A stretch of 64,000 nucleotides of DNA from Parcubacteria bacterium C7867-005 (lineage in GTDB: Bacteria > Patescibacteriota > Minisyncoccia > Phycocordibacterales > Zambryskibacteraceae). This document shows positions 7,553-62,838 of this stretch, in pieces. The DNA lies in contig LFCO01000003.1 in assembly GCA_001189165.1 (NCBI GenBank), positions 190,984-254,983 on the forward strand. Reading direction: 5' to 3'. The notes under the pieces are model-generated. The model was not told where the DNA came from and did not search any database. It worked only from the letters and a program-made list of their open reading frames with translations. A program made the translations under genes and the position numbers. Positions within the stretch are counted from its first letter, which is position 1, and each line of letters starts with the position of its first letter.

Positions 7553-8086
7553 ATGTCACGTATAGGCAAACAAATCATCACCCTTCCAGAAAAAACCGAG
7601 ATCTCATTCTCAGGTTCTACTGTCTCAGTCAAAGGACCACTTGGAGATCTTTCCAAAATTTTCAATCCAATCATCGAAGTAAAGGTAGAAGGCAAAGAAG
7701 TCACTCTAAAACCAAAACGAGAAACTTTAGAATCCAGAGCATTGTGGGGATCATACGCTTCACATCTAAAGAACATGGTCTCAGGGGTAAACAAACCATT
7801 TGAGAAGAAACTCATCCTAGAAGGCATCGGTTATAAATCAGAAGTAAAAGGCGACACTATCGTACTCGCACTCGGATTTTCTCACCCAGTAAATGTTTCT
7901 GTACCAAAGGGACTAAAGGTCACCGCTGAAAAAAACATCATCACTGTATCTGGTATAGACAAAGAAGCGGTTGGAGAATTTACAGCCAAGCTCAGAGCCC
8001 TAAAGAAACCAGAACCTTATAAGGGTAAGGGCATGAGGTATGAGGGCGAAGTGATCAAACGCAAGCAGGGCAAGAAATCTGCATAG
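7553..8086 (+). CDS. rplF: 50S ribosomal protein L6
   Basis: MSRIGKQIITLP..., L6 two-domain pattern. Confidence 0.95.
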   Translation: MSRIGKQIITLPEKTEISFSGSTVSVKGPLGDLSKIFNPIIEVKVEGKEVTLKPKRETLESRALWGSYASHLKNMVSGVNKPFEKKLILEGIGYKSEVKGDTIVLALGFSHPVNVSVPKGLKVTAEKNIITVSGIDKEAVGEFTAKLRALKKPEPYKGKGMRYEGEVIKRKQGKKSA

Positions 8087-9524: not shown

Positions 9525-10796
9525 ATGAAAGAGTTTGTACAAAAATTGCGTTTGATTTTCTCTGAACCAATTTTGAGAAAAAGGATTTTTATCACCTTAG
9601 CTATCTTGGTGACCTTCAGGATACTTGCCGCGATCCCCATTCCCGGCATAGATACACTCAGACTCGAAAGTTTGTTTGCAGATAATCAATTCCTCAGTCT
9701 CTTGAATGTGTTCTCAGGTGGGGGACTCTCTACTCTTTCTATAGTGATGCTCGGAGTCAGTCCATATATTACTGCTTCTATCATCATGCAGCTCCTTACG
9801 CTCATGGTCCCCAAATTTAAATCCATGTATCAAGAAGAAGGAGATGCAGGTAGAAGGAGATTTTCCCAATACTCTAGGATACTCGCTGTACCACTCGCGG
9901 TCATCCAAGCATATAGCTTCATCGTACTCTTCCAGAGACAGGGAGTATTGCCACCGTTGTCCCTCATCTCTTTCATCGTCGACATGTCGGTTATCGTAGC
10001 TGGTTCCATGCTTTTGGTCTGGATCGGTGAATTGGTCACAGAGTTTGGGGTTGGTAACGGAGTGTCACTTATTATCTTTGCTGGTATCGTCTCTGCACTC
10101 CCCGCAAGTATCGGCCAGCTCATTTTCACTTTCAGTGTTGCCCAGATACCTGTCTACCTAGTTTCTCTTGTTGTGGTGCTTTTGGTGATTTATGGAGTGG
10201 TGTTTGTTACAGAAGCAGAGAGACCTATACCGATCACTTACGCCAAACAGGCGAGAGGCGGAGCTTCTACTGGGGGCATCTCTACATACCTTCCCTTGAG
10301 GGTTAACCAAGCTGGAGTGATACCTATTATTTTTGCCTTGTCTATACTTCTGTTCCCACAGATGATTCTTCAGTTTTTGAATACTTCGAAGATTGCAGCC
10401 GTAGCGGACACAGCTTCAAAGCTTCTTGCTCTACTAGCAAACCAGTGGTTCTACGGTATAGCGTATTTCGTACTAGTATTTTTGTTCACTTACTTCTATA
10501 CCGCGGTTACCGTGGATCCAGATCAGATGTCTACAAACCTACAAAAATCCGGTGCTTTTATCCCCGGTATCCGTCCTGGTCAATCTACAGCCGAGTACCT
10601 TTCTAAAGTGATCACACGACTCACGCTGGTTGGAGCATTGTTCCTCAGCTTCGTCGCTGTTCTGCCTCTTATATTGCGAGGTATAACAGGTATCCAATCA
10701 TTGGCTATCGGTGGTACAGGACTCCTCATCGTCGTTTCTGTGGTTATTGATCTTATGAAGAAGATCAACGCTCAAGTTTCTGTGAGGGAATATTAG
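9525..10796 (+). CDS. secY: preprotein translocase SecY
   Basis: 423 aa, 10 TM pattern, SecY motifs. Confidence 0.95.
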   Translation: MKEFVQKLRLIFSEPILRKRIFITLAILVTFRILAAIPIPGIDTLRLESLFADNQFLSLLNVFSGGGLSTLSIVMLGVSPYITASIIMQLLTLMVPKFKSMYQEEGDAGRRRFSQYSRILAVPLAVIQAYSFIVLFQRQGVLPPLSLISFIVDMSVIVAGSMLLVWIGELVTEFGVGNGVSLIIFAGIVSALPASIGQLIFTFSVAQIPVYLVSLVVVLLVIYGVVFVTEAERPIPITYAKQARGGASTGGISTYLPLRVNQAGVIPIIFALSILLFPQMILQFLNTSKIAAVADTASKLLALLANQWFYGIAYFVLVFLFTYFYTAVTVDPDQMSTNLQKSGAFIPGIRPGQSTAEYLSKVITRLTLVGALFLSFVAVLPLILRGITGIQSLAIGGTGLLIVVSVVIDLMKKINAQVSVREY

Positions 10797-23470: not shown

Positions 23471-24556
23471 CTAGAGGAACCTGAGTACGTCTTGTTCGGT
23501 CAGGTTTCTCCTCGTTGTTTCTTCTTTGGTTTTCTGTTTGTCCCATGGATAGTTTTCAAAATAGCTCGAGTGGTGGAGGTGTGACCTCAGTATGCTGAGC
23601 GAGACTATAACTTCACCGAGCTTTCTGTTTCCTTTTTTCTGATAGTATTCGATCAGTATTTTTTCTAGGGCCCTTTGATAAGTCTTACTTTTCCACGCTC
23701 TGGAGTGTAGGTTTCCAAAGTCAAAAACCATCGCGATCGCTTTGTTTGGATAGACGCCAACCCACTCGAGGTCGAGTAACTCTACATCACCAGAGTCAAA
23801 GACATACAGATTATTCGGAGCCATGTCTCCGTGGTACAGGCATGAACCCTTGTTCTCTTTGGTGTTTATGTATCCTGCGGATGATTTGAAAAGTTGGTTT
23901 ATTTTGTTTTTGATATCTGTGATCCCGAGTCTCTTCTCGATGATCTTATAGAACGCTTCTTTCCTTTTATTCTTGGCATCTAGGGGTAGAACCTTTTTAT
24001 TTAAATCTCTGATCAGGTGTTTTCTAAAATTATCCAGGTCAAATTTTTTCTTGACCAATATCTTTTTGAGTTTTTGTGGTAGCTGTCCAAACTGGATCTC
24101 GTGTATTTTGAGTAGCTCGCGCATGGTTGCCTCCGCCTCCTTTTCTCCGAGCAATTCTGCGCCATCGTTCCCCTCTATGAATCCAATCTTTGAATGATCA
24201 GTGGGGAAGGTTTCCATGATGACGAACGGCACCCCCTTCTTTGGATCAGCGTTGGATTCGATGATTCCTCGGGTGCTGATCACTTTGTTTTGTTTTACAT
24301 ATTTGGCGAATTCTATTTGTCGTTCGAATGGGAGGAGTAGTTTCTTGGTATTGTTCACAGGGATTTTGATGAAGCGGTCGACTACTTCACTACCTTCTTT
24401 TCTACGGCAGACCATGAAGAAATATCTGCGTCCGTTTGATATCCGTTTTTCTATAATTTCCTTTTCCTTTTCTCCTAAGACAAAATCGTTATCCAAGAGA
24501 ACTTTGTAGACTCTTTTTCTGTATTTATCTTTTTGTGTTTTGGTCAGCTCGCTCAT
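23471..24556 (-). CDS. phosphotransferase-family (APH/choline-kinase-like) protein
   Basis: Kinase-fold catalytic loop LYHGDMAPNNLYV and downstream D-x-E region. Confidence 0.6.
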   Translation of the reverse strand: MSELTKTQKDKYRKRVYKVLLDNDFVLGEKEKEIIEKRISNGRRYFFMVCRRKEGSEVVDRFIKIPVNNTKKLLLPFERQIEFAKYVKQNKVISTRGIIESNADPKKGVPFVIMETFPTDHSKIGFIEGNDGAELLGEKEAEATMRELLKIHEIQFGQLPQKLKKILVKKKFDLDNFRKHLIRDLNKKVLPLDAKNKRKEAFYKIIEKRLGITDIKNKINQLFKSSAGYINTKENKGSCLYHGDMAPNNLYVFDSGDVELLDLEWVGVYPNKAIAMVFDFGNLHSRAWKSKTYQRALEKILIEYYQKKGNRKLGEVIVSLSILRSHLHHSSYFENYPWDKQKTKEETTRRNLTEQDVLRFL

Positions 24557-24602
24557 GGCTCTAGTATACCCTGTGGTTCTGTGGCTGTACCTCGGTATTT
24601 GG

Positions 24603-25076
24603 TCAGATAATTTTTATTTCTTGTCCCAAGACAACATCTCCTTCACCGAATTTGAATCGTGCCTCTAGTAGTTTTCCTTCAAGTGTTTTAGGTAACCAAA
24701 ATATGTCATCGGGCCACATCTCGCTGAAGGGGATTGCACCTACTTTAAACCATTCGGGGCGCATCTCCTCGCTTTCTGTTGGTTCACCGGACCACTCCTC
24801 TGCAAAATAGACATGCACTACCTGGTCCCATGATGAGTTGTGGGGAAATATAAATTCTAGTTTGGCCACCTTGGATATTTTATCTAGGGTGACACCTATT
24901 TCTTCATCTGCTTCTCTTTTGGCCGCCTCTTCTATAGATTCACCTTCGGTCACCTTGCCACCCACCCCATTCCATCTATTCACACCAAAACCTCTTTTCT
25001 TCATCGCAAGACAGATATCTTCTATCCTCTGGGCCTCGTTTCTTTTTATCAGGAATACTAGAGTTGCGTCTCGCAT
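24603..25076 (-). CDS. NUDIX hydrolase
   Basis: Nudix box GGKVTEGESIEEAAKREADEEIGV. Confidence 0.85.
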   Translation of the reverse strand: MRDATLVFLIKRNEAQRIEDICLAMKKRGFGVNRWNGVGGKVTEGESIEEAAKREADEEIGVTLDKISKVAKLEFIFPHNSSWDQVVHVYFAEEWSGEPTESEEMRPEWFKVGAIPFSEMWPDDIFWLPKTLEGKLLEARFKFGEGDVVLGQEIKII

Positions 25077-25089
25077 ATTAGTAGTTTGT

Positions 25090-25383
25090 TTACCTAAATA
25101 AAGTGAGACCGAAGATGAGGGTGATGAATGCGAAGGTGCCGAGAGTCTTCAAGAAGAAGGTCACAGCTTCTTGCTTCCTGTTGTCGATGAAGAGTTGTAG
25201 TGGCTCGAAGACGAAGAGATAGAACATCACTCCAGCAGAGAGGGTGAAGAGTGAGATCATGGTGACAGGTGCGAAGAATGTGTCCGGCTTGTCGCCGAGT
25301 AACCTCGTGCCATAAAACATCCCCAGACCCAGGATAGTGATGTACAAGGATGCGCACACTGCATTTATGTATGGATTTTTCAT
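25090..25383 (-). CDS. hypothetical small membrane protein
   Basis: 97 aa, 3 predicted TM helices. Confidence 0.5.
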   Translation of the reverse strand: MKNPYINAVCASLYITILGLGMFYGTRLLGDKPDTFFAPVTMISLFTLSAGVMFYLFVFEPLQLFIDNRKQEAVTFFLKTLGTFAFITLIFGLTLFR

Positions 25384-25510
25384 GTAGCCATTATATCAGT
25401 AGTGGGGGATGTGCAACTTATATGAAATTAGCCCGGTTTTACCAACTTGACAGAGCCACTCAAGTATGATATGATGTAAAAAGGCTTAAGTCCCACACCC
25501 CATCTGGAGG

Positions 25511-25753
25511 TTGGCCATGAATGAATTTGTTGGCTTGCTCATCGTGAGCCTCGCCATGTGGCTCTCCGGATACGGAGCGGCCATGATGATGGGCCAGCAC
25601 GGGCGGTACGTCTCGTACAGCAAGAGGGTCGCCCGGTGGTTCGGCTCACAGGCCGTGTCGGCGACTCGCTTCATGTGGAGGCGCTATCCCACCCAGATAG
25701 TCTGGGCGACGATCGGATTCTTCCTTGCTCTTGTTCTCCTCGGGCCCCGCTGA
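25511..25753 (+). CDS. hypothetical small membrane protein (GC-rich)
   Basis: 80 aa, 2 TM helices, GC-rich; GC hairpin GGGCCCCGC...GCGGGGCCC overlaps the stop codon at 25742-25767. Confidence 0.4.
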   Translation: MAMNEFVGLLIVSLAMWLSGYGAAMMMGQHGRYVSYSKRVARWFGSQAVSATRFMWRRYPTQIVWATIGFFLALVLLGPR

Positions 25754-25783
25754 AACTAGCGGGGCCCAGTTCGTATCGTATTT

Positions 25784-26692
25784 TTATATCCCAGATGTAT
25801 TTATCAATTCTATAAATCTTCCTTCAGTTTCTGGTGTTATCCCCTGAAAGAATAATGTCATACCATTATCCATTCCTGTGTCATCAATATAGTGTGTTCG
25901 CGCATAATCTAGGTGCGCTTGAGTAAACTTCTCATCGGCTTTGAATCCAAAATAGTTTTTTAGCTGCGACATTCTTTCGGCAATCTCCATGCCGGTGAAT
26001 AGATAATGGTTCAAATATGTTTGCCTCATATCATCTAGTGATAATTCTAGTTCTGAATCTTCTGGCTTGTCCGTACGATTCTCACTGTTTCTTTTCAAGA
26101 GGTCGTAATACTCTTGAGTAAATTGGACTTTAGAAAGATCGAATCCCTGTTGCAGTGTGTCTGTGGCAGTATCATAAAACCGGGTCCGGTGTCCTTTTTC
26201 ATGAGCTTCGATAATACTCATTTGCTTTGGGGTAGCCCTCTCGCCGGTCCAAGGCACAGTCCAATTTAATGGTATGGAGCTAATCGTCGGTTCGTTAGTG
26301 GTGTAATCTACTTCCGTCACACTTTCTATCTGTCTGATGTCTTCGTCTAATTCCTTTTCGATTTTTTCTCTACTGGGGCCTGAACCTTGCTTCAATCTTT
26401 CTTCTAGGTCATCCGCGCTGATTATCTTTCCTGATGTTTTTCCTTTTAATAATTTGAACTTCTCTTCTCCAGTCCATCCATCTGGTAGGTGGGGGAGCCA
26501 CTCTTCATTTCTTATTTGGTTTAAATAATTAAGCTCCTGTTCATACAGTATGTTTATAATTTGCTGTCTAATCACCGGGTGTCGTAAGCGGCTAATCAGC
26601 ACCTCAGTATCATTACCTTCAAAATTCGCCTCACCCTCGACGGGGTTAGATTCCGATCCGCTCTCAGCTGAATGTGTAGAGAAATTGTTCAT
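25784..26692 (-). CDS. hypothetical protein with HExxH zinc-metallopeptidase motif
   Basis: ATG at 26692 (MNNFSTH...); motif SIIEAHEKGHRT. The longer ORF to 26863 is rejected because it runs through the tRNA and its repeat. Confidence 0.55.
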   Translation of the reverse strand: MNNFSTHSAESGSESNPVEGEANFEGNDTEVLISRLRHPVIRQQIINILYEQELNYLNQIRNEEWLPHLPDGWTGEEKFKLLKGKTSGKIISADDLEERLKQGSGPSREKIEKELDEDIRQIESVTEVDYTTNEPTISSIPLNWTVPWTGERATPKQMSIIEAHEKGHRTRFYDTATDTLQQGFDLSKVQFTQEYYDLLKRNSENRTDKPEDSELELSLDDMRQTYLNHYLFTGMEIAERMSQLKNYFGFKADEKFTQAHLDYARTHYIDDTGMDNGMTLFFQGITPETEGRFIELINTSGI

Positions 26693-26711
26693 ACAGTAAT
26701 AATAACTAAAA

Positions 26712-26733
26712 TTGCGGAGAGAGCGAGATTGAA
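26712..26733. repeat. direct repeat of the tRNA 3' end (copy distal to tRNA 26830-26916)
   Basis: TGCGGAGAGAGCGAGATTGAAC vs TGCGGAGAGAGCGAGATTCGAAC at 26828-26850. Confidence 0.85.
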
Positions 26734-26827
26734 CACTTGGGAAACCCACGGTTTTCCCAGTCCTTCCTCCACGGAAGAGGATGCTCCTCTCCCGACCCCA
26801 CTCCTGTTCGAATCTCGCCAAACACAG
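26734..26827 (-). ncRNA. conserved structured element, copy A (between tRNA and its 3'-end repeat)
   Basis: About 85% identical to 51252-51345 (copy B); shared hairpins, one with compensatory substitutions (A: CGGGAGAGGA-GCAU-UCCUCUUCCG; B: CGGGGAGA-AGCAGGGCG-UCUCCCCG). Confidence 0.4.
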
Positions 26828-26829
26828 AT

Positions 26830-26916
26830 GCGGAGAGAGCGAGATTCGAACTCGCGGTTCCAATTAAGGAACGACGGTTTAGTAAACCGTTGATTTAAAC
26901 CACTCATCCATCTCTC
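26830..26916 (-). tRNA. type II (long variable arm, Ser-like) tRNA with apparent anticodon ACU
   Basis: Acceptor GGAGAGA/UCUCUCC, discriminator G, D-arm UGGAUGAGUGGUUUAAAUC, anticodon stem ACGGU/ACCGU with loop UUACUAA, long variable arm, T-arm GCGAG-UUCGAAU-CUCGC; anticodon is one base from GCU. Confidence 0.6.
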
Positions 26917-26995
26917 CAAGGATTGGCCCTAATATCCTACCAGAATTTAGGCCCAAAATAAGCCCATCCTCATTTGTGCTATCCTGTATGAGAAA

Positions 26996-27235
26996 TTGAC
27001 CTTTCCCACACCCCACCTGCTGGAGGCCCTCGTGAAGTGGTTCGGCATGACAGCTATTGGTATCATCGTCTCCCTCGGTCTCATCTGGGCCAAGGTGAAG
27101 AGGGTCTTGCTTGTCGATTGGGATACCGTGTGGACGACACTCGGCGCGTGCCTCCTCATCTGCCTTGTCATCGATGGTGGGGTGTACCTGATTTATAGGG
27201 CGAGCAGGAAGCACGGCAACAGCCCGGACGCTTAG
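26996..27235 (+). CDS. hypothetical small membrane protein (GC-rich)
   Basis: 79 aa hydrophobic ORF in a GC-rich patch between two tRNAs; the opposing ORF 26879..27253 overlaps the tRNA and is rejected. Confidence 0.35.
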   Translation: MTFPTPHLLEALVKWFGMTAIGIIVSLGLIWAKVKRVLLVDWDTVWTTLGACLLICLVIDGGVYLIYRASRKHGNSPDA

Positions 27236-27312
27236 CACAAGCGACCGGGCCATCTTTTTGTCTATGCGCCATTAGAAAAAAGGGTCAAAACGTGTTAGTT
27301 TGGGCAAGATAT

Positions 27313-27404
27313 GGAGACGTGTCAGAGTGGTCTAACGTACCTCTTTGCTAAAGAGGCAGGTCCCTTAAAAGGCCTCGAGGGTTCGAATCCCTCCGTCTCC
27401 GCCA
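27313..27404 (+). tRNA. tRNA-Ser (anticodon GCU), CCA encoded
   Basis: GGAGACG...; anticodon stem CCUCU/AGAGG with loop UUGCUAA; long variable arm; T-arm GAGGG-UUCGAAU-CCCUC; 3' CGUCUCC-G-CCA. Confidence 0.9.
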
Positions 27405-27442
27405 GATGTCCAAGTTCGAACCGAAGCAAAATAAGGGTTTTT
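27398..27442 (+). repeat. att-like repeat, copy 1 (tRNA-Ser 3' end plus downstream leader); further copies at 31390-31436 and 33370-33402
   Basis: ccgccagatgtccaagttcgaaccgaagcaaaataagggttt vs caccgccagattggcaactttgaacccaagcaaaataagggttt (31390-31436); degenerate third copy ctccgcagtttgtgac at 33370-33402. Confidence 0.8.
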
Positions 27443-27460
27443 AGGCTAAAATAAGGCAAC

Positions 27461-28135
27461 ATGAAAATTATTAACACATATTCATTTAAAGGTGGAGAGA
27501 AATTCCTCAAGACCAAACACCCTAAAGAACTCAAGGAAGTTCAAGATGCTATCAAAGCATTGGATGCCACTCTTTGCTTAACCAAAGAGAGTAAAGAGAA
27601 AACTAAAAAAGGTCAGGTTTTGTTTTCTCCTGTAGATATGAATAATTATCTGAAACTGGTCTGTCATCAGAAAGGATGGACGACAAAAGCCGAGGAAGGC
27701 AAAAAGAGAAAGTTTGTAGAGCCACGTCACGCTTTTGGCAAAGGACGATTTCGTGAAATGGACGGTATCAAGAATAAAGTTGGTCTTGAGATTCAATTTG
27801 GGAAATACGCCTTCATGGGTTATGACATCTTTTCAAAGATGATCATTTTCAAAAACTTAAAATACATTGAGTGTGGTATAGAGATTGTTCCAAGTAATGA
27901 ATTGGTAAAATTCATGTCCACAGGAGTCTCATCTTTCGAGCAACTTCTTGTTGATTTTGAACACAGAGGAGAAAGTAATATTGATATCCCTGTTTTTGTA
28001 ATGAGTATTGGTCTTACAGATGAGGAAAAAACAAAGTCTCAAACTTTGAGAGAACTTTTCCGTACTGACAAGAAAGAAGCGCTCACGAAAATCAAGTTGC
28101 GTAAGTATAATGGATCAGCCCCTGGCCCCAAATAA
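27461..28135 (+). CDS. type II restriction endonuclease, BglII/BamHI family
   Basis: Similarity to the BamHI core (VGLEIQFGK ~ VGMEFETGN; GIEIVPS ~ LAIILMP; GVSSFEQLLVDFE ~ RVTNFEELEPYFE); catalytic spacing D-x8-E-x-Q (REMDGIKNKVGLEIQ) as in BglII; 3' end overlaps the MTase gene by 21 nt on opposite strands. Confidence 0.65.
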   Translation: MKIINTYSFKGGEKFLKTKHPKELKEVQDAIKALDATLCLTKESKEKTKKGQVLFSPVDMNNYLKLVCHQKGWTTKAEEGKKRKFVEPRHAFGKGRFREMDGIKNKVGLEIQFGKYAFMGYDIFSKMIIFKNLKYIECGIEIVPSNELVKFMSTGVSSFEQLLVDFEHRGESNIDIPVFVMSIGLTDEEKTKSQTLRELFRTDKKEALTKIKLRKYNGSAPGPK

Positions 28136-29707
28136 ACTCTCTCGAGCTTTTTTAAATTCGTCTGGCAACTCAGCAAGTTTTACACTACTGGTTGGTTGAT
28201 ACACCGGAGTCCCCATCATTCGACGGTTTAATGTTCCATCAGCGGCCGCTCTCACTCTTTCCTCAGCGATATCTAAATATTCTTTCATAATATCTGATCC
28301 ATATCCTTTGCGATCATGAATCACTGCTGCACAAACTGAGCTTCCTACGCCAAGATAGGGATCAAGTACTGCATCACCTGGGTTGGTCATGGATAACACC
28401 AATCGTTCAATAAGCTCGATCGGGAATTGACATGGATGGTCTGTTTTTTCCGGGTGATTATTTTTAACATTCGGAATATCCCAAACATCTTCGGGGTTTT
28501 TACCTAAAGGGTTACCGGACAAAGTTCCGTATTTTTCGTTTTTCTTAAAATTCTTTTTACCTGGGTACTTTTGGGGTACTCGTACAGGGTCAAGATTGAA
28601 GGTGTAATTGTCGCCTTTAGTGAACCAGACGATTGTTTCGTGTCGTCCTGAAAATCGCTTGGTGCAATGTAGACCATGGCCAAATCGCCAGATGATACGA
28701 TTGCGAAGCTTCAATCCATACTTTTTACCTATCTGATAAATCAAGGCATCTAGCGGAAAGACTTCGCCGTCTTTTGCGATATGGTTTCCGACCTGCCAGC
28801 AGATACTTCCGTCATCAGTAAGTATTCGAACTGCTTCTTCAAAGGTTTGCTCTTGTGCAGCCAGATATACATCTAAGCTTGTTCGTTTTTCGTACTCCTT
28901 ACCAATGTTATAGGGTGGTGATGTAACTATTAGTTTTACCGATTTATCTGGAATAGATTTCATTAAATCGAGGCGATCTCCTTGGAATAAAACCACATCC
29001 GCATCCGCGCTGTATTTATTTGCGATTTTAATTTTCTTCTTCCGATTGAACAGTGAGTGCTGATCTACAGCGATCACGGGTTTTTGTTTTTTTACCTCTT
29101 TTTGTTCAGTCTCCTCGCTAGTCTTTACAACATCTAAAACAATTCCCTGAATTGTTAAACGTGAAGGGTGAATAAACTTTGGCTGGAGGTCAGGATTAGC
29201 TGGCTGTAGTCTTATTTGCCCTTTTTCTTTATAGTATTTTTTGAGAGTAGCTTCGTTTTCATCTATCAAAGCAACAATTTTCTGCCCATTCTCAGCTGTT
29301 GATTGATTTCGTACAACTACCAAATCCCCATCATCAATATTTTCATCAATCATACTTGTACCTGATACACGAAGGGCATAAACTTCACCACCTTTTGGCA
29401 TTTTTGATTTTGGAATAGCTATAGTTTCTCTTTCTTGAATTGCCTCAATTGGCTCTCCTGCGGCTATAGTGCCAAGCAGAGGAATCTTTACCCAAGGTTC
29501 GTCGCTTGCAACACTGATCGCACGAGCTTTGTTATCCACCTTATCCAGATAACCCCCTTCTTTGAGCTTTGCTATGTGAAAATGTGCAGTGGAAACGGAG
29601 GCAAGCTTAAATTTCTTTTGGATATTTTCCAAAGAGGGAGCGTAACCCTTCTTTTCTAGGTAGTTTTTAATGAAGTCGAGGACTTCTTTTTGACGTTTTG
29701 TAAGCAT
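28115..29707 (-). CDS. LexA-like repressor/S24 peptidase fused to N4/N6 DNA methyltransferase (beta class)
   Basis: N-terminal 200 aa align along the whole of LexA (wHTH; cleavage-site-like IAAGEP; S24 motif GTSMIDENIDDGDLVVV; catalytic-Lys region ATLKKY). C-terminal 330 aa carry MTase motif IV LIVTSPPYNIG ahead of motif I DPYLGVGSS (beta order, SPPY). Confidence 0.75.
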   Translation of the reverse strand: MLTKRQKEVLDFIKNYLEKKGYAPSLENIQKKFKLASVSTAHFHIAKLKEGGYLDKVDNKARAISVASDEPWVKIPLLGTIAAGEPIEAIQERETIAIPKSKMPKGGEVYALRVSGTSMIDENIDDGDLVVVRNQSTAENGQKIVALIDENEATLKKYYKEKGQIRLQPANPDLQPKFIHPSRLTIQGIVLDVVKTSEETEQKEVKKQKPVIAVDQHSLFNRKKKIKIANKYSADADVVLFQGDRLDLMKSIPDKSVKLIVTSPPYNIGKEYEKRTSLDVYLAAQEQTFEEAVRILTDDGSICWQVGNHIAKDGEVFPLDALIYQIGKKYGLKLRNRIIWRFGHGLHCTKRFSGRHETIVWFTKGDNYTFNLDPVRVPQKYPGKKNFKKNEKYGTLSGNPLGKNPEDVWDIPNVKNNHPEKTDHPCQFPIELIERLVLSMTNPGDAVLDPYLGVGSSVCAAVIHDRKGYGSDIMKEYLDIAEERVRAAADGTLNRRMMGTPVYQPTSSVKLAELPDEFKKARESLFGARG

Positions 29708-29795
29708 ACTATTGACTTGATTATTGTACTTAGAGTATACTAGAAAGAAAATAGAAAATCAAAGTCGACTTATCCACAATTAATATTTAAACATT

Positions 29796-30008
29796 ATGCC
29801 CAAGTACATTAGGAACGCAGGTAAACAATGGACTTCTCAGGAAGAGAAAAGGCTTGTTCAATTAGCAAAAGAAAACACTCCGACCAGAGTAATCGGTTTA
29901 AAACTTGGAAGGCCAGCTGGTGGAGTGAGAGGAAAGGCTCAAGAATTAGATATTAGTTTGCGACCAACAAACCAATCCCCATACAATCGCACCAAGTCTG
30001 GGAAATAA
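29796..30008 (+). CDS. hypothetical small protein divergent from the LexA-MTase gene
   Basis: 70 aa basic ORF; shares the 88-bp intergenic region containing palindrome AGTATACT. Confidence 0.45.
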   Translation: MPKYIRNAGKQWTSQEEKRLVQLAKENTPTRVIGLKLGRPAGGVRGKAQELDISLRPTNQSPYNRTKSGK

Positions 30009-30019
30009 TTTAACAATCT

Positions 30020-31210
30020 ATGGAGCAAATTGAAGAATTAATTAAAAAAGCAAAAGACGACTCGGTTAACGTATCCAGCCTGCTCAGGGATATAAAGATG
30101 TTGCTCAGTGAACTTAATCAACCATTGCCAGAGTGGGTAGCTTCTGAGCTCGAAGGATATGGTAAGGCAAAGGTACCGAAGTACAGGCAGATAAAAGGAC
30201 AAATGAAAGCATGGAATCCTTTTTATGGATGGGTTCCTGTGATTCATAAGAGTTCTGAAATTGAAAATAAGGTATGTACTAGAGGTTCAGGCCAATCGAT
30301 TCGAGAATTAGAGGAATTACTTGCTGACAAATCTTCTAGTAGTTACGAGATGCCTTACCCAGCATCATTTGCAGATCAAATAATTGAAGGCGGCACGAGA
30401 ACAAAAGTGTCTCTATTTATTAGCCGCACCTCACTCACGCATATTTTAGAAACAGTAAGAAACAAGATTCTGGATTTGTTACTTGAGCTTAAGAAAAGTG
30501 ATGGTGCTGTTGAGAGAACGACAGGCGAGGTTCAGAAGGCTGTCGGAGGTATGAGATTGCCAGGTGGAATTGCACTCGGCCCATTGATGTTTAGTAAAGA
30601 TGGGAAGACAGCGAGCACAATAATGGGTCCAGCAATTATCCCATTTGATTACGGTATTACTAATTCACTCAACAATCTAAATAGAACTGATCTACCACAC
30701 GATGAGTTCCAATCAGCTTTTAATTCTCAAGTAGAAGATTTGATTGCCGAAACGCTTATATATTTTCAAAACCGACTGAAGCCTGTAGTCAAAGGAAACT
30801 CGGGGCAATTTAATAGTATCGATCGATGTATTAAGGAATATGAAAAATGCGAAATTGATGTAAAGAATTTGTGTGATGCCGAATTTCTTTTAAAAGTTGA
30901 TCAGGTACGTGGTAGAAAACACCATTCAGACAGGCGTTATGACGCTGATTACTCCATAGGTGAAGTCAGCTATGATTCAGTTGAAAAACTAAGAGAACTG
31001 AATCGTAAGGTACATACAATAATTCACGCCTTGAATGACAGTCTAGCTGTAACTCATAAAGACTACGACGTTAAGGTCACTCAGACAGCGAATAGCGTAT
31101 CAATCGAATTTACTGCAACAAGTCATGCTTTTGACTTAACTCGTGGCGGAAAGACTGTTCCTAAGAAGGAGAAGGACTCTGGTGACGAAGGGTTGGCTGG
31201 TAAGAGTTAA
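30020..31210 (+). CDS. hypothetical 396-aa protein in the R-M island (possible HEPN-like Abi protein)
   Basis: No recognisable family; weak Rx4H motif RGRKHH near the C-terminus; location next to the R-M pair. Confidence 0.5.
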   Translation: MEQIEELIKKAKDDSVNVSSLLRDIKMLLSELNQPLPEWVASELEGYGKAKVPKYRQIKGQMKAWNPFYGWVPVIHKSSEIENKVCTRGSGQSIRELEELLADKSSSSYEMPYPASFADQIIEGGTRTKVSLFISRTSLTHILETVRNKILDLLLELKKSDGAVERTTGEVQKAVGGMRLPGGIALGPLMFSKDGKTASTIMGPAIIPFDYGITNSLNNLNRTDLPHDEFQSAFNSQVEDLIAETLIYFQNRLKPVVKGNSGQFNSIDRCIKEYEKCEIDVKNLCDAEFLLKVDQVRGRKHHSDRRYDADYSIGEVSYDSVEKLRELNRKVHTIIHALNDSLAVTHKDYDVKVTQTANSVSIEFTATSHAFDLTRGGKTVPKKEKDSGDEGLAGKS

Positions 31211-31231
31211 ATCATTATAAGGCAGGTTTTT

Positions 31232-31404
31232 AGACAGAATAATCCACCGCATTCTGTCCTTTGTCCGACTTCGGTTTTGGTACCTCGAACCATTGAGGGT
31301 GAGCTTTGAATATAGCCCTCAATTCTTGTATACTTTTATCAATATCCTTGAATTTGAGCCACGTTTTCGGTTCAAACTTCGGGACATCGCCACCGCCAGA
31401 TTGG
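31232..31404 (-). repeat. about 170-bp repeat R1 (second copy R2 at 33236-33402) encoding on the minus strand the C-terminal ~45 codons of a lost or absent gene
   Basis: Minus-strand translation R1 ...TWLKFKDIDKSIQELRAIFKAHPQWFEVPKPKSDKGQNAVDYSV* vs R2 ...TAQIQDLDKSIQKLRAIYKVHPEWFEVSNLNSSKDKNEVEYPKL*; about 80% nt identity in the core. Confidence 0.75.
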
Positions 31405-31451
31405 CAACTTTGAACCCAAGCAAAATAAGGGTTTGTGCCAAAATTATCAAC

Positions 31452-31748
31452 ATGAAATTCAAGAACGACAAATTTCGCAAAAATAGAGGTGGCTATACGA
31501 GACTGCTGAAAATCAGTTGTGAAAAGTGTAGTTCTTCAATTTGCCTCTATCAGAAAGACGGCCCGGGTAACCTGCGCCGAATGTATATTGATCGAATGAT
31601 CGATCCGACAGTTTCCATTTTCCGAAAAGATCTTTCTTGTCCGAAAGGCCATCTGCTTGGAGTCAAAATAATTTACGAAAAGGAAAAGCGCCCAGCTTTT
31701 CGGCTCTTTGTGGATTCTGTAACAAAGAAGGTTGTTAAGAATAAATAA
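31452..31748 (+). CDS. hypothetical small Cys-containing protein
   Basis: 98 aa from ATG 31452 (the longer 31293 ORF runs through the repeat); the leader is shared with the REase gene leader (caacATGaaa). Confidence 0.45.
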   Translation: MKFKNDKFRKNRGGYTRLLKISCEKCSSSICLYQKDGPGNLRRMYIDRMIDPTVSIFRKDLSCPKGHLLGVKIIYEKEKRPAFRLFVDSVTKKVVKNK

Positions 31749-32299: not shown

Positions 32300-33235
32300 A
32301 TGACAGAACACATTGAAAGTGAAGCAAATAAAAGACTTAGAGCGAAGTTTGATTTCGAGAAGAATGGGTTTTATGCCGTAACGCCGTACATTGACGCTCA
32401 AATTGGTTTTGGCTGTAAAAAGAAACTGAACGCACAAGACACGAAAAATGTATCGGGTATCGGGTTCTACATTTCCAATCAGACACTTAGCGACTCCAGC
32501 TCTACAAGAAAAACTTTTTACATAACGGCTACATATGGCGAGGAATTAGCCGAGGGTATTCGGATGCGAACCAAAAAGAATTTTTGCGAGCCACTCGACT
32601 TAGAGTTTCGAGATGAATTTTTCTATGATACGAAAACAGAAAAGATTTATAAGAAAGAAAAAGAGGTTGATACGAATAGTGTATTGCTAGAAGTTTACAG
32701 AAAGCATATCAAGACAACACGACCCATTATAGGTGTAATACTTCGTACCAGACTTAGATTTTGGAGAATGTGGCTGCCTTGGATTCCAAAATCACTATCC
32801 TTCTTGTCTCACTATTTCCTATGTCTAATTTCTGGTGACAGATATACCTATGAGTTTTTGTTTCAGGAAGAAACTCTAAATGGAGAAATTATTAGTTCAC
32901 AAATGGAGGGAAGGGTTGGGCGAGGAAAGAATTCGGCAAAAGTTAAAGAGGAAGATAAGGAGGCAAAACAAATTGACTTTTTTGGGAACAAAGTGCCCCA
33001 GTGGGCAATTGTATTTTACTCAATTTTACATTTGGGCGTTTGGTTCACCCTCAAGTATTTTAGTGTCAACACTGATAATTTCGAGAAATTTTTCGGTAAT
33101 AATTTCCTCTTGGTTTTGTACGTGATCGTGTCTTTTTGGATTGTTGGAACGGTTATTCCGTTTTTGCTTAAAAAGATGGTCAAATGGTTCTCAACTCTAG
33201 CTTTTCGCTCAGCCAGTAAAGCTGTCAAAGTTTAG
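32300..33235 (+). CDS. hypothetical membrane protein
   Basis: 311 aa, several TM helices in the C-terminal half. Confidence 0.5.
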   Translation: MTEHIESEANKRLRAKFDFEKNGFYAVTPYIDAQIGFGCKKKLNAQDTKNVSGIGFYISNQTLSDSSSTRKTFYITATYGEELAEGIRMRTKKNFCEPLDLEFRDEFFYDTKTEKIYKKEKEVDTNSVLLEVYRKHIKTTRPIIGVILRTRLRFWRMWLPWIPKSLSFLSHYFLCLISGDRYTYEFLFQEETLNGEIISSQMEGRVGRGKNSAKVKEEDKEAKQIDFFGNKVPQWAIVFYSILHLGVWFTLKYFSVNTDNFEKFFGNNFLLVLYVIVSFWIVGTVIPFLLKKMVKWFSTLAFRSASKAVKV

Positions 33236-42969: not shown

Positions 42970-43060
42970 TTCGGACCGAGGAAGACAGTTATCCACAAGC
43001 TTATTTAAAAAGGCTAGCTATGGGTATATAATCAATAGGTAACTAAAAGTAATAATAATT

Positions 43061-61812: not shown

Positions 61813-62838
61813 TTATTTGGTTATTTCTTCGTAAATTGTAAGAGATATTTTGGCTATAATTGATCTCAGATCGTCGAAGTCTTGTCCTTCGGTCATGATG
61901 CAGAAAGTATATGGCTCCATGCCGTCTTTGGCATATACGATCCCACAGTCATGTAATTGTTTTGTCACTGTTCGTCCAGTTTGCTCGTCCACTAGTGAGC
62001 GTTCGCCAAATTTGTGGGCGACCACAACATCCTTAGGTATGTTTTTTCTAGCACCATCACTAAAGATACTTTTTGAAAGTATATCCAACATCTCATTTGA
62101 AAGCTCTCTGTTTAGGAATGAGGAGTTATAAAGTGTTCGAAATACAGATGCATATGATCTGGCGGTCACCAGGTTCTCTGTGATGTTACCGCTCCTTAGT
62201 TGGAGGCCCAAAGCCTGTAGTATTTTTTGTAGATAATCAAAAGAGACAAAATTTTCTGACAATATTTCAGCGGCAGCATTGTCAGAATAAGCCAATGACC
62301 TAAATATCAGATCTCTTATGGTGTATTCATTACCATTGACGAGCTTTTCTGGTGATACGATGCTTTGGATAGAATAGTCATCTGAGCCACGGCTGTATTT
62401 AACCTTTTGGTCTAAAATATCCGGTGTTATTTCAGAAAGTCTAAAATAAGCTATGGCCAGTGGTACTTTGAGTAGGCTAGCCATAAAAAAGGTGTCGGCG
62501 TCGTTCACTCCGACATACCTAAGACTTGATAGGTCACGGGCGAATGCTGATATTCTCTCTGCTCTACCACTACTTAAATAAGCCTCGATTTCAAGATCAA
62601 GTCTTTTTTGTAGGGCACTCATCTGGCTTAGTTTTTGTTCGAATAATTCGCACCCCGGGTTTGGGTTGATGAATTCCAGGTTTGATAGACAGGGCTTGTT
62701 CCTATCCCCAAAATCTTTAGAGACGCCCCTTCCTGATAGAAATCCAATAGAAAAAAGAATAACCACTAAAGTGGAGAAAAATAGTATCTGTTTTTTATTA
62801 TATATACCCTTCAGCATGTTTATTAAATAGTAGCACAA
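61813..62838 (-). CDS. class A beta-lactamase-family serine hydrolase
   Basis: SxxK (MASLLK), SDN (YSDNAAA), K[ST]G-like AHKFGE; N-terminal TM anchor. Confidence 0.6.
   Translation of the reverse strand: MCYYLINMLKGIYNKKQILFFSTLVVILFSIGFLSGRGVSKDFGDRNKPCLSNLEFINPNPGCELFEQKLSQMSALQKRLDLEIEAYLSSGRAERISAFARDLSSLRYVGVNDADTFFMASLLKVPLAIAYFRLSEITPDILDQKVKYSRGSDDYSIQSIVSPEKLVNGNEYTIRDLIFRSLAYSDNAAAEILSENFVSFDYLQKILQALGLQLRSGNITENLVTARSYASVFRTLYNSSFLNRELSNEMLDILSKSIFSDGARKNIPKDVVVAHKFGERSLVDEQTGRTVTKQLHDCGIVYAKDGMEPYTFCIMTEGQDFDDLRSIIAKISLTIYEEITK

What the first reader, a model, noticed from the sequence alone, without database searches (positions are those of the whole stretch)
27461..29795. Restriction-modification pair in which the methyltransferase is fused to a complete LexA-like repressor/S24 autopeptidase
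The 530-aa minus-strand protein aligns in its first 200 residues to LexA along its whole length: winged-helix DNA-binding part, Ala-Gly-type cleavage site IAAGEP, Ser-nucleophile motif GTSMIDENIDDGDLVVV, Lys region ATLKKY. It continues into a beta-class N4C/N6A methyltransferase (motif IV TSPPYNIG before motif I DPYLGVGSS). Its convergent, 3'-overlapping partner is a BglII/BamHI-family endonuclease with D-x8-E-x-Q catalytic spacing. BamHI/BglII-type systems normally use a small HTH C-protein for control; here a self-cleaving SOS-type repressor domain is covalently attached to the modification enzyme. This would allow RecA-stimulated or auto-catalytic cleavage to change MTase activity or operon repression and so couple restriction-modification to DNA damage. 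I do not recognise this architecture from described systems.
Basis: partly seen in the sequence, partly recalled or inferred. Interest (0 to 1): 0.85.

Follow-up and report, generated by a model that had tools for sequence, protein, structure and literature searches.

The report
LexA repressor fused to restriction-modification methyltransferase
A candidate-phyla-radiation bacterium has welded a complete, apparently self-cleaving SOS repressor (LexA) onto the protective methyltransferase of a BstYI-like restriction-modification system, and the same design recurs across many unrelated restriction systems of this group, which suggests that these bacteria wire restriction control to the DNA-damage signal.

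Summary
ORF 28115-29707(-) encodes 530 aa: a full-length LexA (NCBIfam equivalog 193.8 bits, cutoff 110.95), a disordered linker of about 25 residues, and a beta-class N6_N4 DNA methyltransferase. The convergent partner, overlapping by 21 bp, is a BstYI/BglII-family endonuclease. The fusion is not an assembly artefact: at least 88 protein clusters from independent assemblies share it. The Ala-Gly cleavage site and Ser/Lys dyad are invariant in 89/89 family members and in 83/83 modules across all fusion groups. The fusion's promoter carries an 11-bp-period direct repeat (TTTCTA-N5-TTTCTA) between -35 and -10. The repeat's sequence covaries with a DNA-contacting residue of the recognition helix, so autorepression is well supported. 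Unfused relatives use a classical C-protein; the window has none. The pattern is wider than the finding. The same LexA clade is fused to at least 14 beta-class methyltransferase lineages with different endonuclease partners, and also to gamma-class and C5 methyltransferases. In addition, 5/5 standalone lexA genes examined head an operon with a DpnI- or NmeDI-type endonuclease. RecA-triggered cleavage and its effect remain inference. No publication describing this was found. Verdict: real, a new variant of the 'regulatory methyltransferase' class, high interest.

The parts
27313..27404 (+). tRNA-Ser(GCT) immediately upstream of R in the same orientation; likely source of read-through transcription of R, and marks the border of the islet
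   Evidence: ARAGORN. No sigma70-like promoter lies between it and R. The same tRNA-then-R arrangement, with a conserved junction of about 35 nt, occurs in L004 and L166-168.
27461..28135 (+). Restriction endonuclease, 224 aa, BstYI/BglII family
   Evidence: Pfam Endonuc-BglII 4.5e-19; BstYI 1SDO 1.3e-31 over its full length, BglII 6e-3; PADLOC REase_II 5e-34.
27761..27796 (+). Catalytic motif D101-x8-E110-x-Q112 (DGIKNKVGLEIQ)
   Evidence: Located; aligns with BstYI TDFVKDRVAIEVQ.
28115..28135 (.). 21-bp overlap of the 3' ends of the convergent R and M genes, with no room for a terminator between them
   Evidence: Exactly 21 bp in every fused locus examined and in unfused L003.
28115..29707 (-). 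LexA-methyltransferase fusion ORF, 530 aa
   Evidence: AF2 model and fold search; at least 88 homologous clusters with the same architecture.
29513..29707 (-). LexA winged-helix DNA-binding domain (residues 1-65); recognition helix S39-T-A-H-F43-H
   Evidence: Pfam LexA_DNA_bind. Ungapped alignment to E. coli LexA puts F43 at Glu45, a DNA-contacting residue (PMC3091678).
29456..29461 (-). Ala83-Gly84 autocleavage site
   Evidence: Invariant in 89/89 family members and 83/83 modules of all groups.
29120..29482 (-). S24 autopeptidase/dimerisation domain (residues 76-196) with Ser118 (29354-29356) and Lys156 (29240-29242)
   Evidence: Pfam Peptidase_S24 5e-29; Ser and Lys invariant; LexA C-terminal-domain fold matches.
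28997..29119 (-). Linker (residues 197-237), poorly conserved, predicted disordered in 197-222
   Evidence: AF2 pLDDT about 30 for residues 197-222; low conservation.
28238..28996 (-). Beta-class amino-methyltransferase core (residues 238-490): motif IV TSPPY (28910-28924) precedes motif I DPYLGVGSS (28337-28363)
   Evidence: Pfam N6_N4_Mtase 7e-51; PDB M.BceJIV, M.RsrI, CcrM, M.PvuII; PADLOC MTase_II 5e-81.
29741..29757 (-). Candidate LexA operator: direct repeat TTTCTA-N5-TTTCTA (period 11 bp) filling the -35/-10 spacer
   Evidence: Perfect match. Conserved position in about 80 loci of all groups. Its sequence covaries with recognition-helix residue 43. It occurs only once per long locus.
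29734..29762 (-). Promoter of the fusion gene: -35 TTGATT (29762-29757), 17-nt spacer, -10 TATACT (29739-29734)
   Evidence: A forward promoter scoring at least 9/12 is present in 77/84 related upstream regions.
29770..29778 (+). DnaA-box consensus 9-mer TTATCCACA, 8 nt upstream of the -35
   Evidence: One of only two copies in 64 kb. Exact in 53/84 related upstream regions and one mismatch in 18 more, against about 0.001 expected per region.
29712..29741 (+). Opposite-facing promoter (TTGACT-18-TATACT) sharing the palindromic -10 AGTATACT; it points at the 70-aa ORF and AbiTii (tentative part)
   Evidence: 10/12 match. An overlapping reverse promoter is present in 35/84 loci against 3.9% of shuffled controls.
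29796..31210 (+). Divergent neighbours: 70-aa ORF (29796-30008, no family) and AbiTii abortive-infection gene (30020-31210); possibly co-controlled through the shared control region (tentative)
   Evidence: Pfam AbiTii 2e-32; PADLOC AbiTii. Analogous divergent defence genes lie 76-92 nt upstream in L166 (AbiU2) and L001 (Cap4-NACHT).

Best explanation
This is a BstYI-like Type II restriction-modification system of a CPR (Patescibacteria) bacterium. The protective beta-class methyltransferase (probably N4-cytosine, from its SPPY motif) is translationally fused, through a flexible linker, to a complete LexA repressor. The proposed mechanism has four steps. (1) The LexA part dimerises and binds the direct repeat TTTCTA-N5-TTTCTA between the -35 and -10 of its own promoter. 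The methyltransferase therefore represses its own synthesis, taking over the timing and homeostasis role that a C-protein plays in unfused relatives. (2) The endonuclease gene has no operator and no C gene. It is probably transcribed by read-through from the adjacent tRNA-Ser gene, and it is opposed by convergent transcription from the methyltransferase promoter across the 21-bp gene overlap. (3) When single-stranded DNA and RecA filaments appear, the LexA part cleaves itself at Ala83-Gly84. Such filaments arise from ordinary DNA damage and also from cuts the endonuclease makes at under-methylated sites. (4) The DNA-binding domain is lost, the promoter opens, and more methyltransferase is made, while convergent transcription dampens R. 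The outcome is a damage-triggered feedback loop that restores protection, in effect a form of restriction alleviation. Shown: the architecture, intact and invariant catalytic residues, operator position, and protein-operator covariation. Inferred: operator binding, RecA dependence, the direction of the effect on methylation, and the route of R transcription.
For: Full-length LexA equivalog plus methyltransferase in one ORF. Ala-Gly, Ser and Lys are invariant in 89/89 and 83/83 sequences, while the DNA-binding domain varies. The operator sits inside the promoter spacer in the window and in about 80 related loci. The repeat core tracks residue 43: F/Y/H goes with TTTC(T/G)A, Q with TTTCGG, E with TT(C/A)GG and K with TTTCGC. 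The Q and E types lie at several separate places on the LexA tree and in several MTase groups. Residue 43 aligns with E. coli Glu45, a DNA-contacting residue. Patescibacteria LexA is reported to use a direct-repeat motif (PMC7739468). Unfused relatives have M -> <- R <- C, whereas the window clade lacks C. The operator is absent upstream of R and no promoter precedes R. LexA has been fused independently to beta-class, gamma-class and C5 methyltransferases, which argues that the fusion itself is selected. Unbalanced R-M activity is known to induce SOS (PMC3874152).
Against: No experiment exists: DNA binding, self-cleavage and RecA dependence are all inferred. Neither recA nor any other operator-bearing promoter lies in the 64-kb window. 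Some fused loci keep an HTH C-like gene (L007, L010, L015), so the LexA part is not simply a C-protein substitute. If cleavage fragments are degraded, as they are in E. coli, cleavage could lower rather than raise methyltransferase levels. Conservation of the catalytic residues could instead reflect a host SOS role, if this protein is the cell's only LexA. The AF2 model is only moderate (mean pLDDT 68.9).
Confidence: 0.55

Rival explanations
1. The fusion protein is the cell's one and only LexA, the SOS master regulator. The 3' end of the chromosomal lexA gene is a hotspot where restriction genes land, as a downstream cistron (DpnI, NmeDI) or fused in frame (methyltransferases). On this view the LexA part mainly serves the host SOS network, and the methyltransferase rides on a dependable, autoregulated, damage-inducible promoter. 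This overlaps with the best explanation and differs in who 'owns' the repressor.
For: Fused and standalone LexA modules are interleaved on the LexA tree: at least 45 label changes against a minimum of 14, and the window's nearest neighbours include standalone LexAs. Standalone and fused genes share the same promoter, operator and DnaA-box layout. 5/5 standalone lexA genes are followed within 5-20 nt by an endonuclease gene, in otherwise housekeeping neighbourhoods. No held locus has two lexA copies in 453 kb. Most standalone LexAs share the H-F-H helix.
Against: The fused gene sits among variable defence genes (AbiTii, AbiU2, Cap4-NACHT) in different places in different genomes, which looks mobile. 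Whole genomes could not be scanned for a second lexA. No other operator-bearing gene was found near any locus.
Confidence: 0.35
2. Suicide (abortive-infection) switch. Phage- or damage-induced cleavage exposes degradation signals, the methyltransferase is destroyed, and the stable endonuclease then cuts newly replicated unmethylated DNA, killing the infected cell.
For: E. coli LexA fragments are rapidly degraded after cleavage (general knowledge). The system sits beside abortive-infection genes (AbiTii in the window, AbiU2 in L166). R carries no operator and so would stay on.
Against: Cleavage also derepresses the gene's own promoter, which would replenish the full-length protein. Ordinary DNA damage would become lethal, a heavy cost for a design that is very widespread in this LexA clade (31 of the 40 best library representatives are long fusions). 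There is no evidence on degradation in CPR bacteria.
Confidence: 0.1
3. The LexA part serves only as a DNA-binding and dimerisation module, a large C-protein or SsoII-type N-terminal domain. Its self-cleavage is irrelevant to the restriction system.
For: Methyltransferases fused to plain HTH regulators work this way (SsoII/Ecl18kI; PMC12707154; PMC3978073 and PMC2760811). Operator covariation shows that DNA binding matters.
Against: The cleavage site and both catalytic residues are invariant in 83/83 modules spanning 50-70% identity and many independent fusions. A purely structural role would tolerate their loss, as happens in non-cleavable LexA-like repressors.
Confidence: 0.1
4. Artefact: two adjacent genes (lexA and M) merged by a sequencing frameshift or mis-assembly.
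For: Standalone lexA genes with a closely abutting downstream restriction gene do exist, so a single-base error could create a fusion.
Against: The same uninterrupted ORF of about 530 aa occurs in at least 88 clusters from independent projects at 65-94% identity. A variable linker stays in frame throughout.
Confidence: 0.01

Closest known systems
Regulatory (dual-function) methyltransferases: M.SsoII, M.Ecl18kI, M.EcoRII, M.MspI, M.ScrFIA
   Same: A sequence-specific DNA-binding domain is fused to the N-terminus of the methyltransferase through a flexible linker. It binds an operator in the enzyme's own promoter and autorepresses (PMC12707154; PMC3978073 and PMC2760811).
   Different: Those carry a small HTH of about 70 aa with no protease, are C5 methyltransferases, and act on overlapping promoters of adjacent R and M genes. 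Here the regulator is a complete 196-aa LexA with a self-cleavage apparatus, the enzyme is a beta-class amino-methyltransferase, and R and M are convergent with R outside the operator's reach.
C-protein-controlled Type II systems (BglII, BamHI, PvuII type)
   Same: Same endonuclease/methyltransferase family and the same convergent, 21-bp-overlapping gene layout as the unfused relatives (L003, L011-L014), which do have a C gene.
   Different: The window has no C gene. Control has moved from an activator-repressor of R to a repressor fused to M.
BstYI restriction-modification system (PDB 1SDO)
   Same: R aligns with BstYI over its whole length at 1.3e-31 with the D-x8-E-x-Q motif conserved. RGATCY is depleted in the window (66 against 90.6) and absent from a 7.5-kb stretch around the genes.
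   Different: Specificity is not determined. The described BstYI system has no LexA fusion (my own knowledge).
Canonical LexA (E. coli, T. maritima) and the Patescibacteria LexA with its direct-repeat box
   Same: End-to-end homology above the NCBIfam equivalog cutoff, matching positions of Ala-Gly, Ser and Lys, and autoregulation at its own promoter. A direct-repeat motif is reported for Patescibacteria (PMC7739468).
   Different: It carries a 330-aa enzyme on its C-terminus. No SOS regulon could be shown here.
SOS-controlled toxin-antitoxin modules (symE, tisB, yafNO, dinJ-yafQ) and damage-induced restriction alleviation of Type I systems
   Same: A link between the DNA-damage signal and a toxin/antitoxin-like pair (PMC3874152).
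   Different: In those cases LexA is a separate protein acting in trans, or alleviation is proteolytic (ClpXP). Here the sensor-repressor is covalently part of the 'antitoxin' enzyme.

Membership tests
LexA repressor (TIGR00498 / Peptidase S24) | Full-length match above the curated equivalog cutoff | tested here: met
   193.8 bits against 110.95, residues 2-196; PDB LexA hits over 2-196.
LexA repressor (TIGR00498 / Peptidase S24) | N-terminal winged-helix DNA-binding domain | tested here: met
   Pfam LexA_DNA_bind 3e-18; predicted helices H4-20, H26-32 and H38-50 followed by strands; fold matches 3K2Z and 3JSO.
LexA repressor (TIGR00498 / Peptidase S24) | Ala-Gly scissile bond plus Ser/Lys catalytic dyad | tested here: met
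   A83-G84, S118 and K156, invariant in 89/89 and 83/83 sequences.
LexA repressor (TIGR00498 / Peptidase S24) | Operator in its own promoter (autoregulation) | tested here: met
   Direct repeat within the -35/-10 spacer, conserved and covarying with a DNA-contacting residue. Binding itself was not measured.
LexA repressor (TIGR00498 / Peptidase S24) | RecA*-stimulated self-cleavage | not testable with these tools
   Needs biochemistry. No recA in the window.
LexA repressor (TIGR00498 / Peptidase S24) | Controls a regulon of DNA-repair genes | tested here: inconclusive
   The only other perfect operator in 64 kb lies inside a coding region. There are none elsewhere in loci of up to 21 kb. Whole genomes were not available.
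Type II R-M system, BstYI/BglII endonuclease family | Endonuclease fold-family match with the catalytic D-x8-E-x-Q | tested here: met
Type II R-M system, BstYI/BglII endonuclease family | Adjacent cognate DNA methyltransferase | tested here: met
   Convergent, with a 21-bp overlap; the pair is conserved in all loci with enough flank.
Type II R-M system, BstYI/BglII endonuclease family | Recognition sequence RGATCY and matching methylation | tested here: inconclusive
   Site depletion (z about -2.5) and a 7.5-kb site-free gap (P about 0.018) are suggestive only.
Beta-class N6/N4 amino-methyltransferase | Motif IV (S/D-P-P-Y) before motif I (FxGxG-like); Pfam N6_N4_Mtase | tested here: met
   TSPPY at 262-266, DPYLGVGSS at 449-457; Pfam 7e-51. 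The N4C against N6A assignment rests only on S-P-P-Y (inference).
C-protein-controlled R-M system | Small HTH C gene upstream of and co-oriented with R | tested here: not met
   A tRNA-Ser gene directly precedes R and there is no C homologue. C is present in the unfused relatives.
SsoII-type regulatory methyltransferase | N-terminal DNA-binding domain fused to the methyltransferase, autorepressing through an operator | tested here: met
SsoII-type regulatory methyltransferase | Homology to the SsoII N-terminal HTH region and C5-methyltransferase core, with an operator shared by the R and M promoters | tested here: not met
   The regulator is LexA and the enzyme is beta-class. R is convergent and lacks the operator. 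It works like this class but is not a homologous member.

The most novel reading that the evidence does not exclude
In CPR/Patescibacteria, LexA is above all a controller of restriction. The lineage's LexA is systematically coupled to restriction-modification genes, either fused to methyltransferases of at least three unrelated classes or heading operons with methyl-directed endonucleases. In genomes like this one the fusion is the only LexA. A single self-cleaving polypeptide would then unite the DNA-damage sensor, the SOS repressor and the genome-protecting methyltransferase. Through a bidirectional promoter it may also gate neighbouring abortive-infection genes, and through a conserved DnaA box it may tie all of this to replication initiation.
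Probability: 0.3. Interest if true: 0.9.

Novelty: new variant of a known kind. Interest (0 to 1): 0.75.

Why it matters
Type II restriction systems must keep methylation ahead of cleavage. The known solutions are C-proteins, antisense RNAs, promoter methylation and HTH-tagged methyltransferases. None of them senses the damage that a mis-balanced system causes. A methyltransferase carrying its own RecA-responsive, self-cleaving repressor would close that loop directly. That would amount to a built-in autoimmunity alarm, or damage-induced restriction alleviation for Type II systems. Independent fusion of LexA to beta-class, gamma-class and C5 methyltransferases, and the pairing of every standalone lexA examined with an endonuclease, suggest a general principle in a huge, uncultured part of the bacterial tree. 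It would also change how the SOS response of these reduced-genome organisms should be read. The protein-operator covariation (residue 43 against repeat positions 5-6) gives a ready-made specificity code that can be tested with simple swaps.

Tried and rejected
1. Frameshift or mis-assembly: rejected, because at least 88 independent clusters have the same ORF.
2. A wider LexA regulon in the window: the only other perfect operator (62737-62753) lies inside the coding sequence for the hydrophobic N-terminus of a beta-lactamase-family protein and is probably chance. The longer loci hold no further operators.
3. Operator upstream of R: none.
4. recA or a second lexA in the window: none. No locus has two lexA copies.
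5. Phage origin: only 2 close relatives in 2.9 million viral contigs.
6. One fusion event against many within the BstYI-type group: an NJ tree of the methyltransferase domain put 24 unfused sequences in one clade among the fused ones, plus 4 stragglers that may be truncated calls. Rooting is uncertain, so no firm conclusion was drawn.
7. Site avoidance as proof of specificity: suggestive only. AGATCT and GGATCC taken alone are not depleted.
8. AF2: moderate confidence only (mean pLDDT 68.9). It supports two modules plus a disordered linker, but not any inter-domain geometry.
9. Literature: ten full-text searches found no description of LexA-methyltransferase fusions. The key Patescibacteria SOS paper (Sanchez-Osuna et al. 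2017, Environ Microbiol 19:3465) is not held, so I cannot exclude that it mentions them.
10. PADLOC has no model beyond generic MTase_II, REase_II and AbiTii.
Full report
OBSERVATION. The two ORFs exist as described. ORF 28115-29707 on the minus strand encodes 530 aa. ORF 27461-28135 on the plus strand encodes 224 aa. They converge and overlap by 21 bp. Pfam finds LexA_DNA_bind (residues 2-63), Peptidase_S24 (76-190) and N6_N4_Mtase (257-483) in the long protein, and Endonuc-BglII in the short one. The NCBIfam lexA equivalog model matches residues 2-196 at 193.8 bits, against a cutoff of 110.95. Against solved structures, the N-terminal 196 residues align end to end with T. maritima and E. coli LexA, and residues 240-489 align with beta-class methyltransferases (M.BceJIV, M.RsrI, MboIIA, CcrM, M.PvuII). 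The endonuclease aligns over its whole length with BstYI (1.3e-31), including the D-x8-E-x-Q motif, but only weakly with BglII (6e-3). An AlphaFold model built from 57 family members has mean pLDDT 68.9. It gives a LexA module at pLDDT about 75-84, a disordered tether at residues 197-222 (pLDDT about 30) and a methyltransferase core reaching pLDDT 97. Foldseek recovers LexA and beta-class methyltransferase structures as the top hits.

NOT AN ARTEFACT. A search of about 5.8 billion protein clusters returned at least 88 clusters of about 530 aa at 65-94% identity with the same three Pfam domains. They come from NCBI, JGI, ENA and Logan assemblies; source names include Candidatus Uhrbacteria and a Parcubacteria group bacterium. 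Nine GTDB species representatives carry the full fusion, among them Paceibacterota, Saccharibacteria and Nomurabacteria. The window itself is ordinary CPR chromosome with type IV pilus genes, FtsH, LigA, RecG and GatA. The R-M pair lies in a slightly AT-richer stretch, between two tRNA-Ser genes and an AbiTii gene.

THE SELF-CLEAVAGE APPARATUS IS UNDER SELECTION. In 89 aligned family members Ala83, Gly84, Ser118 and Lys156 are all invariant, while the recognition-helix region varies. The same holds for 83/83 non-redundant LexA modules from all the other fusion groups and from standalone genes.

AN AUTOREGULATORY OPERATOR. The fusion gene has a sigma70-like promoter: TTGATT at 29762-29757, a 17-nt spacer, and TATACT at 29739-29734. 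The spacer is filled by a perfect direct repeat, TTTCTA-N5-TTTCTA, at 29741-29757. The same layout appears upstream of about 80 related genes. In a minority of loci the repeat is inverted and lies just downstream of the -10. The repeat core tracks the residue between two conserved histidines of the recognition helix. F, Y or H goes with TTTC(T/G)A in about 60 loci. Q goes with TTTCGG: six loci, plus L009, whose repeat lies further upstream. E goes with TT(C/A)GG, and K with TTTCGC. The Q and E types lie at several separate places on the LexA tree and in several methyltransferase groups. That residue (F43) aligns without gaps to E. coli LexA Glu45, which is one of the listed DNA-contacting residues of helix III (PMC3091678). 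Patescibacteria LexA is cited as one of the cases that evolved a direct-repeat motif (PMC7739468). I take this as good computational evidence that the LexA part binds its own promoter. In every long locus the operator occurs only once, and never upstream of R.

RELATION TO C-PROTEIN CONTROL. Methyltransferase-only relatives of about 320 aa, 81-88% identical in the enzyme part, have the classical layout M -> <- R <- C with a 70-aa HTH_3 C-protein. All five unfused loci carry that C gene. Among fused loci with enough flank, the window, L001, L004, L166 and L168 have none. L007 keeps the same C gene, and L010 and L015 have a different XRE-type HTH gene. In the window's clade, R directly follows a tRNA gene in the same orientation with a conserved junction, and no promoter-like site precedes R.

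THE PATTERN IS MUCH WIDER. I scanned metagenome contigs with the LexA-plus-linker part. Nearly all of the 80 loci returned are long ORFs of 470-613 aa. Their LexA parts are 50-71% identical to the window's, but their methyltransferase parts fall into at least 14 groups only 25-30% identical to it. All representatives tested have the three domains. Their downstream partners are unrelated endonucleases: TaqI, a His-Me finger/Endonuclease VII type, MamI, Tsp45I, R.Pab1 and HNH types, or a second methyltransferase. In a library of 1.84 billion representatives, 31 of the 40 best relatives of the LexA module are 390-825 aa long with LexA at the N-terminus. This count is biased towards fusions, because they split into more 50%-identity clusters than standalone LexAs do. 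All ten of the long representatives (596-890 aa) examined carry a DNA methyltransferase, including gamma-class N6_Mtase/Eco57I/TaqI_C types and a C5 cytosine methyltransferase. Standalone LexAs of about 210 aa at 60-72% identity also exist. All five whose context I could read are followed within 5-20 nt by an endonuclease gene, DpnI family four times and NmeDI-like once. On a tree of LexA modules, fused and standalone forms and the different methyltransferase groups are thoroughly interleaved: at least 45 label changes are needed where 14 would suffice, and shuffled labels need about 64. Only two close relatives occur in 2.9 million viral contigs.

MECHANISM (mostly inference). The fusion autorepresses its promoter. 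RecA filaments formed after DNA damage, including self-restriction at under-methylated sites, stimulate cleavage at Ala83-Gly84. The DNA-binding domain is lost, and methyltransferase synthesis rises. Stronger convergent transcription across the 21-bp overlap may also dampen R. It is established that unbalanced R-M activity induces SOS (PMC3874152), so this would be a damage-sensing feedback loop. The main rival is not exclusive with it: this protein may be the cell's only LexA, with restriction genes repeatedly landing at the 3' end of lexA. A suicide-switch reading and a 'mere DNA-binding tag' reading are less likely. The first carries a high cost under ordinary DNA damage, and the second does not account for the invariant catalytic residues.

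COMPARISON WITH KNOWN SYSTEMS. It works like the 'regulatory methyltransferases' of the SsoII/Ecl18kI type described in the 2025 EcoSal Plus review, which never mentions LexA. It is not homologous to them, and it adds an autoproteolytic switch. PADLOC holds only generic models for these proteins. Ten literature searches found no description. The 2017 Patescibacteria SOS paper could not be read, so prior mention there cannot be excluded.

SPECIFICITY. RGATCY is modestly depleted in the window: 66 observed against 90.6 +/- 9.6 expected. It is absent from 24094-31628, a 7,534-bp stretch that contains 24 GATC cores (about 7 RGATCY sites expected; simulated P about 0.018 for such a gap). This fits a BstYI-like site but does not prove it. 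The SPPY motif suggests N4-cytosine methylation (inference).

VERDICT. This is a new variant of a known kind, namely a regulatory methyltransferase whose regulator is a complete self-cleaving LexA. It is part of a previously undescribed, CPR-wide coupling of LexA to restriction genes. Interest 0.75.

Noticed in passing
window 29770-29778 (+); also 42989-42997 (+); upstream regions of L001-L171: A perfect DnaA-box consensus (TTATCCACA) lies 8 nt upstream of the -35 of the fusion gene. The exact 9-mer is present upstream of 53/84 related lexA or lexA-methyltransferase genes, and with one mismatch in 18 more, against about 0.001 expected per region. It is invariant while the LexA operator varies, so a different factor, presumably DnaA, should bind it. 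That would link LexA and methyltransferase expression to replication initiation. The only other copy in the window lies between a pilC-like gene and a pilin gene.
   Followed up: partly
window 29712-29762; L166 about 9925-10000; L001 about 7909-8000: The control region is a symmetric bidirectional promoter. An opposite-facing TTGACT-18-TATACT shares the palindromic -10 (AGTATACT) with the fusion's promoter. Such an overlapping reverse promoter occurs in 35/84 loci against 3.9% of shuffled controls, with an offset of exactly 2 bp in 32. It points at divergent defence genes only 76-92 nt away: the 70-aa ORF plus AbiTii here, AbiU2 in L166, and a 1975-aa Cap4-nuclease/NACHT protein in L001. The LexA operator would lie at the start of that transcript, so these genes may be damage-inducible.
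   Followed up: partly
L164/L165 6001-7412; L169 4001-5414; L171 4001-5435; L170 4001-5384; L116 664-2116: Every standalone CPR lexA gene whose context could be read (5/5) is followed within 5-20 nt by a restriction endonuclease gene: DpnI/Dam-replacing family four times, NmeDI_C once. This implies LexA-repressed, damage-inducible methyl-directed restriction.
   Followed up: partly
proteins P0269, P0270, P0297, P0299, P0259, P0334 (one search hits): Relatives of this LexA module (43-57% identical to it) are also fused to gamma-class N6_Mtase/Eco57I/TaqI_C methyltransferases (615-890 aa) and to a C5 cytosine methyltransferase (777 aa). These are independent fusions to unrelated methyltransferase classes.
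   Followed up: partly
window 24094-31628: A 7,534-bp stretch around the R-M genes has no RGATCY site, although it contains 24 GATC cores (about 7 RGATCY expected; simulated P about 0.018). Across the whole window RGATCY is at 66 against 90.6 +/- 9.6 expected.
   Followed up: yes
window 27405-27460; L004 and L166-L168 upstream of R: R is preceded directly by the 3' end of a tRNA gene in the same orientation. A conserved junction of about 35 nt (gatgtccaagttcgaaccgaagcaaaataagggtt) follows the tRNA, which suggests co-transcription with the tRNA or a tRNA-associated insertion border.
   Followed up: partly
window 26830-26917 (-): ARAGORN calls a tRNA-Ser with the unusual anticodon ACT, back to back with tRNA-Ser(GCT). 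It was not examined further.
   Followed up: no
window 29796-30008 (+), 25784-26863 (-), 31293-31748 (+), 32300-33235 (+), 23471-24556 (-): Several ORFs flanking the R-M/AbiTii islet have no Pfam match, and the four tested against PADLOC also have no match there (23471-24556 was not tested). They include a basic 70-aa protein just upstream of AbiTii that may form an operon with it.
   Followed up: no
window 62737-62753 (-): A second perfect TTTCTA-N5-TTTCTA lies inside the coding sequence for the hydrophobic N-terminus of a beta-lactamase-family protein. It is judged a chance match from T-rich codons.
   Followed up: yes
L008 (JBDRON010000007.1) and L010 (JAKANM010000004.1): Two genomes carrying the full fusion are not labelled as CPR: one is labelled Elusimicrobiota and one is an unclassified 'bacterium'. 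This could be mis-binning or transfer outside CPR; it was not resolved.
   Followed up: no
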